Below, one piece after another: positions 47,990-49,760 of a stretch of DNA of 64,000 bases. The translations under genes were made by a program, and so were the position numbers. Position 1 is the stretch's first letter, and each line of letters starts with the position of its first letter. This DNA comes from Escherichia coli (GTDB lineage Bacteria > Pseudomonadota > Gammaproteobacteria > Enterobacterales > Enterobacteriaceae), in assembly GCF_013315695.1 (NCBI RefSeq), contig NZ_CP054353.1. One strand, written 5' to 3'. Under the pieces are notes generated by a model. The model was not told where the DNA came from and did no database searches. It was given only the letters and a program-made list of their open reading frames with translations.

Positions 47990-47997
47990 TTAACGCA

Positions 47998-48028
47998 GAA
48001 GGCCTGGCGCAATGTCAGGCTTTTTTTA
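47998..48028 (+). terminator. rho-independent terminator after aqpZ
   Basis: GCCTGGCGCAATGTCAGGC followed by T7. Confidence 0.6.
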
Positions 48029-48224
48029 AAATGTTGTTATATGTTGATTCATCATCTTGTTGCGCTCCTTTCATGAGCTAAGCCACATATTGCCACTGAC
48101 GCAAGGAGCGCGCAGGGGGCGGCCAATCGCCGCCGCCCCCTGCCCCCCCGGGCTCTGGCGAACAAAATCGCCGCTGCGCGGTACCCTCGGCTTATCCCTT
48201 GCGGCTACCGGGTCGGGCGCGAGG

Positions 48225-49610
48225 TAACATATATGGACGCTCCCGGAATGCAATGCTTTCTTCAGTTATGTAATAAAACGGGTAGGTGCAGCCATATATC
48301 CGGTTTCTGATGGGATTTTTATCCCGAACCATGATGAAATCCGCCAGGCAGGTACCAATCATCCTCTACGGGCTAACTTGCCCTTGTTACCTCTCGGTGT
48401 ATCCTGCCTGCGGTCTTACCTGTTTTGCCATCTTCTGAAGTCACCTGCACCTACCAGGACGTTAACTTTTTTTCAGCACCTCGTCAGATTGACTGACCTT
48501 GTGTCAGGCGAGCTGCCGAGGTTGATATTCAGTATTGTGTGACAACATTGACCACATGATCCTCGCTGTTTTTGCCGCCATGGCGACAACAGCTACATTG
48601 TAGTGCTTCCGCTCAAGGAGTCCCTGAAGCCAGGAATTCTCCTCAACCGCGCCGTTTCGGTTGACCCAGGCGGTAAGTGCGCGTGCGCCGTGAACCAGCA
48701 GGTATCGGAAATATCCATCTCCACGTTTGCTGATCCCTCCCAGTTGCTGTTTCCCGCCGCTGGAATGTTCCTTTGGTGTCAGCCCCAGCCATGAAGCGAA
48801 CTGCTTTGCGGTACTGAATTGTCGGGCATTACCCACTGCTGCTACCACATAAGTGGCCGTTAGCATGCCAACCCCCGGGATCTTGGCCATTCTCTGGCAG
48901 GCTTCCTGCGTTCTATACCAGGAGGCCAGAGCTTCTTCTACCTGTTTAACTTGTTCTTCAAGTTCCCGGATATGTTTAGACTGTCTGTAGATGCTGGTTC
49001 TGACAAAGGGAGATAAACCATTTTCGCCATCCTCCAGAATGGCTGGCAGCTCACGTGTTAAATGGCTTTGTCCGGCCGCAATCGTAATACCAAACTCAGC
49101 AAGTGTGGCTCTTAAACTATTGGCACAGGCAATCCGCTCACGGATAAGTATTCCCCGTTCAGTGTGTAACGCTAAAACGGCCTGCTGCTCTTCGGTTTTT
49201 ATCTGAACAAAACGCATATTCGGACGGGTTACCGCTTCGCAGATTGCTTCAGCATCTGCTGCATCCGTCTTGTTCGTTTTCACATAAGGCTTCACATACT
49301 GCGGAGGTATGAGTTTTACCTCATGACCATAGCGGGTGAATAATCGCGCAAAATAATGACTGGATGAGCAGGCTTCCATGCCAATCAGACAAGGTTCCAG
49401 TTGAATCACAAACTGAACAAACTTAGCCCGGGTGAGCTTTTTACGCAAAATAGTATGGCCTTCATGATCGACACCATGAAGCTGAAAAACGTTCTTTGCC
49501 AGGTCGATACCAAGAGTTGATACTTTCATGTGGACGCTCCTAATTTTTCAGGACGTATTGCAACGATCCAGTCTGGTACTTTGATACCGTAAAATCTGGA
49601 GCGTCCATCT
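48225..49610 (-). mobile_element. IS110-family insertion sequence (IS1111-group-like), ~1.38 kb
   Basis: transposase ORF flanked by inverted TGGACGCTCC (48234-48243) and GGAGCGTCCA (49588-49597); short 5' leader and ~260-bp 3' non-coding end. Confidence 0.75.
48504..49529 (-). CDS. IS110-family transposase (DEDD recombinase)
   Basis: 341 aa; N-terminal GIDLAKN..., central FVQIKTEEQQA and C-terminal GLTPKEHSSGG..GISKRGD resemble IS1111/IS4321-type transposases as remembered. Confidence 0.85.
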   Translation of the reverse strand: MKVSTLGIDLAKNVFQLHGVDHEGHTILRKKLTRAKFVQFVIQLEPCLIGMEACSSSHYFARLFTRYGHEVKLIPPQYVKPYVKTNKTDAADAEAICEAVTRPNMRFVQIKTEEQQAVLALHTERGILIRERIACANSLRATLAEFGITIAAGQSHLTRELPAILEDGENGLSPFVRTSIYRQSKHIRELEEQVKQVEEALASWYRTQEACQRMAKIPGVGMLTATYVVAAVGNARQFSTAKQFASWLGLTPKEHSSGGKQQLGGISKRGDGYFRYLLVHGARALTAWVNRNGAVEENSWLQGLLERKHYNVAVVAMAAKTARIMWSMLSHNTEYQPRQLA

Positions 49611-49760
49611 CATTATCCCTGTAAAACGCGCCCTCAGCCCACATCCATGTGGGCTGCCCCGGCCTTCAGGGAACGCCTCGGCGATTTTGACGCCACCAAA
49701 CAACCGTGCGGCCTATTGATAAAGAGCTAACACATTGTCAAAAAACATCACTATGGTTTC

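What the first reader, a model, noticed from the sequence alone, without database searches (positions are those of the whole stretch)
47990..49760. IS110-family element sits at a junction between two chromosomal regions that are far apart in K-12
Upstream of the IS, the window follows the K-12 ~20-min region in inverted orientation (serS through aqpZ). Downstream, it follows the ~48-min region in native orientation (dusC, yohJK, cdd, sanA, yeiS, preTA, mglCA). In K-12, as I recall, aqpZ neighbours lysO(ybjE) and dusC neighbours mdtQ/yohF. A single inversion with endpoints near 20 and 48 min would be roughly symmetric about the replication terminus and would produce exactly this adjacency. The IS at the breakpoint is the likely cause, or at least a marker. 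An artificial join cannot be excluded from the sequence alone.
Basis: partly seen in the sequence, partly recalled or inferred. Interest (0 to 1): 0.55.

Follow-up and report, generated by a model that had tools for sequence, protein, structure and literature searches.

The report
IS-flanked terminus inversion at RRS repeats
This is one end of a real 1.3-1.5 Mb flip of the E. coli chromosome around the replication terminus, already published for strain SMS-3-5, and its endpoints are two copies of a site-specific insertion sequence sitting inside the two 'replication risk' (TRIP1/RRS) repeats.

Summary
aqpZ (47288-47989) and dusC (49761-50708) are joined across a 1,384-bp IS110-family element of the IS1111 type (48231-49614). 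The same junction occurs in 84 of 5,426 complete E. coli genomes. The reciprocal lysO-IS-yohP-mdtQ junction, with an oppositely oriented copy, is present in SMS-3-5 and in MSB1_4I, the closest relative checked. An artificial join is excluded.

This repeat is TRIP1a/TRIP1c, also called RRS-lysO/RRS-dusC: two inverted G-quadruplex repeats about 650 kb either side of dif. The IS always enters at the same site (GAGGTAAC-AT-CCCTG) and in the same orientation. This holds at three E. coli loci and three Kluyvera loci.

The inverted junction without the IS occurs in only one genome. Several genomes, including CE10, carry both IS copies but are not inverted. The most likely cause is homologous recombination between the two 1.6-kb IS-plus-repeat units.

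The inversion is already published (Wang 2017; Li 2024). The papers I read do not connect the IS to TRIP1/RRS as its target.

The parts
47288..47989 (+). aqpZ, the last gene of the inverted 20-min block
   Evidence: ORF. Annotated as aqpZ in the near-identical genomes MSB1_4I and SMS-3-5. About 98% identical to K-12 aqpZ in reverse orientation.
48052..48230 (.). Left arm of the TRIP1/RRS repeat. Its outer markers are of the TRIP1a/RRS-lysO type.
   Evidence: Aligns to both K-12 intergenic copies, aqpZ-lysO and yohP-dusC. Named TRIP1a/c in PMC10888264 and RRS in PMC11194060.
48130..48149 (-). G-quadruplex motif of the RRS. The G-rich strand is the minus strand: GGGGGGGCAGGGGGCGGCGG, one substitution from the published GGGGGTGCAGGGGGCGGCGG.
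   Evidence: Pattern match. Motif sequence taken from PMC11194060. It is intact and lies 80 bp from the IS insertion point.
48229..48230 (.). AT dinucleotide at the left IS boundary. It is a candidate crossover core or a 2-bp duplication.
   Evidence: K-12 empty sites read GGTAACAT|CCCTG. The window has AT on both sides of the IS.
48231..49614 (-). IS110-family insertion sequence of the IS1111 type, 1,384 bp
   Evidence: Boundaries set from the empty K-12 sites. Found in 179 of 5,426 E. coli genomes at 1-4 copies, nearly all at 99% identity or more.
48233..48243 (.). Subterminal inverted repeat ATGGACGCTCC at the transposase-distal end
   Evidence: Perfect 11-bp inverted match to 49598-49608.
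48231..48503 (-). 273-bp non-coding region downstream of the transposase gene. This is the expected position of the seekRNA/bridge RNA in IS1111-type elements.
   Evidence: Folds better than shuffled controls (z = -3.2). The position rule comes from PMC11187229.
48339..48418 (-). Predicted target-binding module of the guide RNA: a stem, an internal loop and a small hairpin
   Evidence: Minimum-free-energy fold. The module is 100% conserved in two of the three Kluyvera copies and differs by one single-base deletion in the third.
48385..48393 (-). Candidate guide GAGGUAACA, complementary to the target strand TGTTACCTC that abuts the insertion point
   Evidence: 9-nt exact match. 155 of 5,000 dinucleotide shuffles do as well. 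A weaker second match, GGAUG, lies at 48360-48364 on the 3' side of the same loop.
48504..49529 (-). DEDD transposase / RNA-guided recombinase gene, 341 aa
   Evidence: NF033542 at 359 bits. PF01548 and PF02371. Annotated as WP_000868863.1 at this junction in the near-identical genome MSB1_4I, and in CE10 and SMS-3-5.
49598..49608 (.). Subterminal inverted repeat GGAGCGTCCAT at the transposase-proximal end, followed by a 6-bp extension CTCATT
49615..49709 (.). Right arm of the TRIP1/RRS repeat, starting with the second AT. Its outer markers are of the TRIP1c/RRS-dusC type.
49761..50708 (-). dusC, the first gene of the non-inverted 48-min block

Best explanation
A site-specific IS110-family element of the IS1111 type inserts at one position and in one orientation in TRIP1/RRS repeats, probably guided by an RNA from its 3' non-coding region. 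E. coli carries two such repeats in inverted orientation about 650 kb either side of dif: RRS-lysO (TRIP1a) and RRS-dusC (TRIP1c). Once both were occupied, each locus held about 1.6 kb of near-identical inverted homology, made of the 1,384-bp IS plus the repeat arms. A reciprocal homologous exchange between the two units flipped the whole segment between them. That segment is 1.31 Mb in K-12 coordinates and about 1.55 Mb in this lineage. The exchange produced the aqpZ-IS-dusC junction seen in the window and a lysO-IS-yohP junction elsewhere in the genome. The flip is nearly symmetric about dif and each hybrid repeat keeps its orientation. Replichore balance, gene strand bias and the lagging-strand position of the RRS G-quadruplex are therefore preserved, which would explain why the arrangement persists in a whole clade. 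Shown here: both junctions, the empty sites, the target specificity, and the genome-wide association of the inversion with the IS. Inferred: that the exchange was RecA-dependent homologous recombination, that the guide RNA works as predicted, and that RRS-triggered RecA loading helped.
For: The junction occurs in 84 of 5,426 complete genomes. The reciprocal junction carries an inverted IS copy in SMS-3-5, in MSB1_4I, and in at least 51 genomes overall. An IS3-disrupted variant exists in at least one further lineage. K-12 has empty, inverted repeat copies at both loci. The inverted junction without the IS is found in 1 of 5,426 genomes, and that genome still has the IS at the other junction. 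So no IS-free inversion exists, although nearly every genome carries the two bare repeats. Double-occupied but non-inverted genomes exist: CE10, XJ6.1, JNEC-KY178, Res13-Lact-PER13-34 and LR778147. These show the proposed precursor state. IS SNP types also fit. In SMS-3-5 the dusC-side IS shares five variant positions with the CE10 TRIP1c copy, and the lysO-side IS matches the CE10 TRIP1a copy. This places a single reciprocal crossover in 48100-48620, which is 390 bp of IS plus 131 bp of repeat arm. Insertion is at the same site and in the same orientation at TRIP1a, TRIP1c, the asmA-yegH TRIP1-like copy and three Kluyvera loci. Symmetry about dif is shown. Wang et al. 2017 list a 1,606-bp inverted repeat carrying transposase WP_000868863.1 in their table of repeats flanking E. 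coli inversions. Pham et al. report RecA-loaded gaps that start at the RRS and extend 1.4-2.5 kb.
Against: The inverted genomes appear to belong to one related group: their junction is at least 99.3% identical to the window in every genome listed. The IS-inversion association may therefore rest on only one to a few independent events. The crossover interval also includes 131 bp of repeat arm and the IS boundary itself. It cannot separate IS-IS exchange from repeat-repeat exchange or from a site-specific event. The lysO-side IS allele is the commonest allele in E. coli, so it could be a later insertion. The IS copies in the window's lineage are mosaic. That implies gene conversion or more than one event, and it blurs the reconstruction. 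Five non-inverted double-IS genomes show that two copies do not make inversion frequent. RecA dependence was not tested.
Confidence: 0.7

Rival explanations
1. The inversion came from homologous recombination between the bare TRIP1/RRS repeats, as Li et al. 2024 state. On this view the IS is a passenger that occupied the repeats before or after the event and added nothing essential.
For: TRIP1a and TRIP1c are inverted, nearly identical over about 215 bp, and published as the rearrangement substrate. They are RecA-loading hotspots. The crossover interval in SMS-3-5 includes 131 bp of repeat arm next to the G-quadruplex. One genome has an IS-free hybrid repeat at the junction.
Against: Nearly all 5,426 genomes carry the bare repeats, yet none has an inversion without the IS at one or both junctions. 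The one exception still has the IS at the reciprocal junction. The IS multiplies the homology length about six-fold. The related strain CE10 shows the double-IS precursor state.
Confidence: 0.17
2. The IS recombinase, guided by its own RNA, catalysed the inversion directly by exchanging strands at the AT cores of two inverted copies. Host homologous recombination was not involved.
For: Bridge recombinases of this family can invert DNA when sites are placed in inverted orientation, including megabase inversions in engineered E. coli (abstracts listed). In SMS-3-5 each IS copy stayed wholly linked to one flank, which is compatible with exchange exactly at an IS boundary. The IS-free hybrid junction in KFu014 is what recombination between a left and a right IS junction would leave.
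Against: The natural donor site is the joined IS ends of a circle, not an integrated copy. Exchange between one left and one right junction would give one empty junction plus a tandem IS, but the observed genomes have one IS at each junction. Exchange between two left junctions does not fit the guide layout. The marker intervals are too wide to show a boundary crossover. KFu014 is explained more simply by later loss of one copy.
Confidence: 0.05
3. The adjacency is an assembly error or an artificial join in the source sequence.
For: None was found.
Against: 84 independent complete genomes from many laboratories and sequencing platforms share the junction. The reciprocal junction exists in every inverted genome whose second junction was examined. 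The window is 99.98% identical to MSB1_4I across the junction.
Confidence: 0.01

Closest known systems
TRIP1a/TRIP1c inversion of E. coli SMS-3-5 (Li et al. 2024, Genes 15:236; Wang et al. 2017, BMC Genomics 18:268)
   Same: Same two breakpoints (aqpZ-lysO and yohP-dusC), same hybrid junctions and same transposase protein. The SMS-3-5 junction is 99.3% identical to the window over 3.9 kb.
   Different: The window's lineage carries an extra gentisate cluster next to dusC, and its inverted segment is larger, about 1.55 Mb. Its junction IS carries a different SNP combination from the SMS-3-5 junction copy. Li et al. attribute the event to TRIP1 and do not mention the IS. Wang et al. list the transposase repeat but not TRIP1.
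RRS elements (Replication Risk Sequences) of Pham, Cox, Goodman et al., NAR 2023 and 2024
   Same: The repeat arms flanking the IS are RRS-lysO and RRS-dusC. They have the same loci, the same G-quadruplex motif with one substitution, and the same 650-kb symmetry about dif.
   Different: Here both RRS copies are split by a 1.4-kb IS 80 bp from the G-quadruplex, and the two copies have exchanged arms. The three RRS papers I searched do not mention IS insertion or natural RRS-RRS inversion.
ISEc11 and other IS1111-type elements with a seekRNA (Siddiquee et al. 2024, Nat Commun 15:5235)
   Same: DEDD transposase of about 340 aa, subterminal inverted repeats, a long non-coding region downstream of the gene, orientation-specific insertion at one sequence, and a promoter assembled when the ends are joined.
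   Different: The target is different (GAGGTAAC-AT-CCCTG inside TRIP1/RRS, against GTGAAAATACTG for ISEc11). Its guide RNA is only predicted here. I could not find a name for this element.
IS621 and the Pseudomonas elements ISPa11 and ISPpu9, which target REP sequences
   Same: Members of the same superfamily that choose a structured, repeated intergenic element as a safe target.
   Different: IS621 has its non-coding RNA upstream and no subterminal repeats. Its REP targets number in the hundreds, whereas this IS has only three to six possible sites per genome, two of them symmetric about dif.

Membership tests
IS110 family, IS1111 group | DEDD (RuvC-like) transposase with the PF01548 and PF02371 domains | tested here: met
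   NF033542 at 359 bits against a cut-off of 140. PF01548 E = 1e-14 and PF02371 E = 4e-24.
IS110 family, IS1111 group | Subterminal inverted repeats with short terminal extensions | tested here: met
   11-bp perfect repeat ATGGACGCTCC, 6 bp from one end and 2 bp from the other. Distant relatives have similar ATGGnC repeats.
IS110 family, IS1111 group | Long non-coding region downstream, not upstream, of the transposase gene | tested here: met
   273 bp downstream against 85 bp upstream.
IS110 family, IS1111 group | Insertion at one specific sequence in one orientation, without a long target duplication | tested here: met
   Identical junctions at TRIP1a, TRIP1c, the asmA-yegH copy and two of three Kluyvera loci; the third differs by one base next to the AT. 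Only an AT is shared by the two boundaries.
IS110 family, IS1111 group | A promoter formed when the two ends are joined in the circular intermediate | tested here: met
   Joining the ends in silico across one AT gives TTGCAT-N16-TATAAT, 82 bp upstream of the start codon. No circle was observed.
IS110 family, IS1111 group | Guide RNA from the non-coding region with segments complementary to both strands of the target | tested here: inconclusive
   A 9-nt match abuts the insertion point on the 5' side of a predicted internal loop (p about 0.03 by shuffling). The 3' side has only a 5-nt match. A 52%-identical relative has a 7-nt match to its own flank at the same position. No Rfam family matched. 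No RNA data.
TRIP1 / RRS repeat | GC-rich repeat of 222-273 bp in the aqpZ-lysO and yohP-dusC intergenic regions, in inverted orientation | tested here: met
   The arms at 48052-48230 and 49615-49709 align to both K-12 copies.
TRIP1 / RRS repeat | G-quadruplex motif GGGGGTGCAGGGGGCGGCGG on the lagging-strand template | tested here: met
   The motif is present with one T-to-G change at 48130-48149 on the minus strand. The lagging-strand position follows from the gene order and the position of dif, and is an inference.
TRIP1 / RRS repeat | Triggers post-replication gaps that are loaded with RecA and SSB | not testable with these tools
   Needs ssGap-seq on a strain whose RRS copies carry the IS.
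Terminus-symmetric inversion between inverted repeats | Both reciprocal junctions present, each carrying one copy of the repeat in opposite orientation | tested here: met
Terminus-symmetric inversion between inverted repeats | Endpoints roughly equidistant from dif | tested here: met
   K-12 coordinates give 675.7 and 638.5 kb. SMS-3-5 gives 746 and 658 kb.

The most novel reading that the evidence does not exclude
The megabase inversion was made in nature by the IS's own RNA-guided recombinase acting on two inverted copies, not by host recombination. A related reading is that the ssDNA gap programmed by the RRS both exposes the target for RNA pairing and loads RecA onto the inserted IS. The RRS pair would then be a built-in hotspot for targeting and for terminus flipping. 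The probability given is for the recombinase reading. The gap-assisted reading is more likely, perhaps 0.3, but less novel.
Probability: 0.06. Interest if true: 0.7.

Novelty: already known. Interest (0 to 1): 0.33.

Why it matters
As a genome feature this is ordinary. It is an inversion between inverted IS copies, symmetric about the terminus, fixed in a clade, and already reported for SMS-3-5.

The modest added value is a link between three separate literatures. The repeat described as TRIP1 is the RRS element, which is reported to be conditionally essential and to load RecA at every replication. The transposase-bearing repeat at the inversion ends is a site-specific IS whose only targets found here are these repeats.

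Natural strains in which both RRS copies are split by 1.4 kb, 80 bp from the G-quadruplex, are a ready-made test of which part of the RRS is needed.

The IS also lies in the 1.4-2.5 kb zone where RecA-coated gaps are reported. That offers a concrete, testable reason why TRIP1a/TRIP1c exchanges dominate TRIP1 rearrangements.

Tried and rejected
- **Rfam scan.** A scan of 47900-49800 at E up to 1 gave only a chance microRNA hit, so no curated RNA family covers the non-coding region.
- **Donor-binding guide.** An 8-nt match, AUAUAUGG, pairs with the IS end plus core. The surrounding CCGGAT.TATGGCTGCA is a conserved scaffold in distant relatives whose ends differ, so I do not claim it.
- **Covariation for the guide RNA fold.** The only close relatives (Kluyvera, Citrobacter) are about 95% identical, and the predicted module is invariant or differs only by a single-base deletion. 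The next relatives are at 53% identity or less.
- **Local phylogeny.** Using ybjD-aqpZ and dusC to count independent inversions gave too few sites and conflicting signals. It hints only that the window's lineage is no closer to SMS-3-5 than the non-inverted CE10 is.
- **TRIP1 arms moving with the IS.** I rejected this because the asmA-yegH TRIP1-like copy is present without the IS in thousands of genomes.
- **Fricke et al. 2008.** This SMS-3-5 genome paper is not held in the library.
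Full report
**What is in the window.** aqpZ (47288-47989, +) is followed by an intergenic stretch, then a 341-aa ORF on the minus strand (48504-49529), then dusC (49761-50708, -). The ORF is an IS110-family transposase. It scores 359 bits on NF033542 ('IS110 family RNA-guided transposase', cut-off 140) and carries PF01548 and PF02371. Upstream, the window runs from serS to aqpZ in the reverse of K-12 order. 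Downstream, it runs from dusC to mglC in K-12 order. A 6-kb 3-hydroxybenzoate/gentisate cluster (50770-56780) sits between dusC and yohJ.

I aligned the window to the K-12 aqpZ-lysO and yohP-dusC intergenic regions. Window 48052-48230 and 49615-49709 match both K-12 regions. K-12 therefore carries the same repeat of about 215-273 bp at both loci, in inverted orientation and without an IS. The K-12 sequence reads GGTAACAT|CCCTG at the point where the window has 1,384 extra bases. The element is 48231-49614, with AT on each side. It has 11-bp subterminal inverted repeats (ATGGACGCTCC at 48233-48243 and 49598-49608). There are 85 bp upstream and 273 bp downstream of the gene.

**Identity of the repeat.** The repeat is TRIP1. 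Li et al. 2024 place TRIP1a downstream of aqpZ and TRIP1c downstream of yohI (dusC), in opposite orientation. It is also the 'Replication Risk Sequence' of Pham et al. [quoted passage not shown] They stall lagging-strand synthesis and leave gaps loaded with RecA and SSB that extend 1.4-2.5 kb. At least one copy is conditionally essential. The published G-quadruplex motif is present with one substitution at 48130-48149 on the minus strand, 80 bp from the insertion point.

**Is the junction real?** Yes. The 4.1-kb stretch 46900-51000 is found contiguously in 84 of 5,426 complete E. coli genomes. Three are 100% identical (an unnamed isolate NZ_OZ547117, MSB1_4I and MS 21-1), and SMS-3-5 is 99.3% identical. 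A query built to represent the predicted reciprocal junction (lysO side joined to yohP-mdtQ side) is covered in full, with a 1.4-kb insert annotated as an IS110 transposase, in 51 genomes including SMS-3-5. In at least one further lineage (AR Bank #0349) the reciprocal junction is present but its IS110 copy has been hit by an IS3-family element. This probably accounts for much of the gap between 84 and 51. In MSB1_4I, which is 99.98% identical to the window wherever they align, I located the reciprocal junction directly. It reads mdtQ-yohP-IS110-lysO-hcp at 3.406 Mb, about 1.55 Mb from the aqpZ-IS-dusC junction at 1.857 Mb. An artificial join is excluded.

**Symmetry.** In K-12 the two insertion points are at 915,110 and 2,229,293, and dif is at 1,590,750. 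The arms are 675.7 and 638.5 kb. In SMS-3-5, dif is at 1,656,736 and the junction ISs lie at about 0.911 and 2.314 Mb, giving arms of 746 and 658 kb. The exchange lies inside the repeat, so each hybrid repeat keeps its orientation relative to its outside flank. [quoted passage not shown] This last point is my inference from gene order and the position of dif.

**Prior knowledge.** Li et al. 2024 describe this inversion in SMS-3-5 (1,313,407 bp between TRIP1a and TRIP1c). They count 68 aqpZ-yohI and 58 ybjE-yohG hybrid repeats among 6,725 genomes and attribute them to TRIP1. Their only mention of IS110 is in a reference title. Wang et al. 2017 place SMS-3-5 in its own scaffold group. Among the repeats they found at the ends of E. 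coli inversions they list a 1,606-bp inverted repeat 'E' encoding transposase WP_000868863.1. That is the protein annotated at this junction in MSB1_4I and at the reciprocal junction in SMS-3-5. The inversion and the transposase-bearing repeat are therefore both published. The RRS papers do not mention IS insertion or natural RRS-RRS inversion.

**Behaviour of the IS.**
- It occurs in 179 of 5,426 E. coli genomes at 1-4 copies, nearly all at 99% identity or more.
- Besides TRIP1a and TRIP1c, it occupies a third locus between asmA and yegH. There it is flanked by a diverged TRIP1-like repeat that lacks the G-run motif. The junctions are the same...GAGGTAACAT | IS | ATCCCTGTAAAACGCGCC....
- That third repeat exists without the IS in thousands of genomes, so the IS is the mobile part and the repeat is the resident target.
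- Kluyvera genomosp. 3 has three copies, 96-97% identical at protein level, each inside an RRS-like repeat at the same site and in the same orientation. One copy differs by a single base next to the AT.
- Joining the IS ends in silico across one AT creates TTGCAT-N16-TATAAT upstream of the transposase gene. This junction promoter is typical of the family.

**Predicted guide RNA.** The downstream non-coding region folds better than shuffled controls (z = -3.2). It contains a stem, internal loop and hairpin module at 48339-48418. The 5' side of the loop reads GAGGUAACA, which is complementary to the target strand next to the insertion point. The 3' side contains GGAUG, which overlaps the AT on the other strand. 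This order and overlap fit the seekRNA layout described for IS1111-type elements. The 9-nt match is only modestly significant: 155 of 5,000 shuffles do as well. A 52%-identical relative carries a 7-nt match to its own flank at the equivalent position. I treat RNA guidance as likely but not shown.

**What caused the inversion.** Four observations bear on this.
1. Only one of 5,426 genomes (KFu014) has the aqpZ-repeat-dusC junction without the IS. It still has the IS at the reciprocal junction, and its empty site has a single AT. No IS-free inversion exists, although almost every genome has the two bare repeats.
2. Eight genomes have aqpZ-IS-lysO and ten have yohP-IS-dusC in the K-12 arrangement. 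Five have both: CE10, XJ6.1, JNEC-KY178, Res13-Lact-PER13-34 and LR778147. These show the proposed precursor state.
3. In CE10 the two IS copies differ at six positions. In SMS-3-5 the dusC-side IS shares five of them with the CE10 TRIP1c copy, and the lysO-side IS matches the CE10 TRIP1a copy at all six. The outer repeat markers switch type. A single reciprocal exchange within 48100-48620 explains this. That interval is 390 bp of IS plus 131 bp of repeat arm.
4. In the window's lineage the junction IS is mostly of the TRIP1a type and the partner copy is mosaic. This points to a different crossover position, gene conversion, or repeated flipping.

Together these favour homologous recombination between the 1.6-kb IS-plus-arm units. 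Recombination between the bare repeats is a weaker rival, and direct recombinase action is a remote one. The main weakness is that the inverted genomes look like one related group. The association with the IS may therefore rest on few independent events, and my attempt to count events from local sequence failed.

**A link worth testing.** Lagging-strand synthesis reaches the G-quadruplex from the aqpZ side. The unreplicated gap should then run from the G-quadruplex through the insertion point toward dusC (toward lysO at the other locus). A 1.4-kb IS inserted 80 bp beyond the G-quadruplex would lie almost wholly inside the reported 1.4-2.5 kb RecA-coated zone. The two loci are roughly equidistant from dif, so they should be replicated at about the same time. 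This is inference from published RRS data and the geometry here, not a result. It predicts that IS-loaded RRS pairs recombine far more often than bare ones. It also makes strains like this one natural tests of whether a split RRS still works.

**Verdict.** The feature is an already published, IS-flanked, terminus-symmetric inversion. The useful additions are the exact anatomy, the target specificity of the IS for TRIP1/RRS repeats, and the connection to RRS biology.

Noticed in passing
window 29264-40513: An 11.25-kb island between clpS and yljB/cspD is absent from the otherwise 99.98%-identical genome MSB1_4I. The alignments on either side overlap by about 21 bp. It encodes a tyrosine integrase (39108-40346), an Icd-like protein (37555-38562) and a 712-aa helicase/primase-like protein (34816-36954). 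It looks like a P4-like satellite or a phage-inducible island.
   Followed up: partly
window 1-11000: Part of a P2-like prophage lies next to serS, with tail fibre, tape measure, sheath, tube and gpD genes. The matching MSB1_4I region also has an ogr-like gene and a hok/gef toxin gene.
   Followed up: partly
window 50770-56780: A 3-hydroxybenzoate/gentisate degradation cluster (monooxygenase, maleylpyruvate isomerase, hydrolase, gentisate dioxygenase, MhbT transporter, LysR regulator) sits between dusC and yohJ. It is absent from K-12 and SMS-3-5 and present in only five of the listed junction-bearing genomes.
   Followed up: partly
L051 2240-4060 and L053 2240-4060 (asmA-yegH intergenic region): A sixth, diverged TRIP1-like repeat without the G-run motif lies here. 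It is not among the five loci (a-e) listed by Li et al. 2024 and serves as a third target of the IS. It is present without the IS in thousands of genomes and is about 177 bp shorter in K-12-like strains.
   Followed up: partly
L011 3141-3523 (strain KFu014): This is the only genome of 5,426 with the inverted aqpZ-repeat-dusC junction but no IS. The site is restored exactly, with one AT. This suggests precise loss of the IS after the inversion, although the seekRNA paper did not detect re-joined flanks for ISEc11.
   Followed up: partly
L050 3453-5667 (strain AR Bank #0349): At the reciprocal junction, the IS110 copy has itself been interrupted near its 5' end by an IS3-family element. A similar feature pattern (IS3, IS110, lysO) was listed for about twenty other genomes.
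   Followed up: partly
L016, L017, L019 (Kluyvera genomosp. 3 YDC799): Three copies of the same IS, each inside an RRS-like repeat. The Kluyvera repeat unit extends roughly 100 bp further on one side than the E. coli TRIP1.
   Followed up: partly
window 48071-48253 (-): A 60-aa ORF lies entirely within the GC-rich repeat arm and the IS end. It is most likely spurious.
   Followed up: no
and summaries: Queries containing only TRIP1 and its flanks, with no IS, hit 12 places on plasmid records. TRIP1-like sequence may therefore exist on some plasmids, or some replicons may be misassigned.
   Followed up: no
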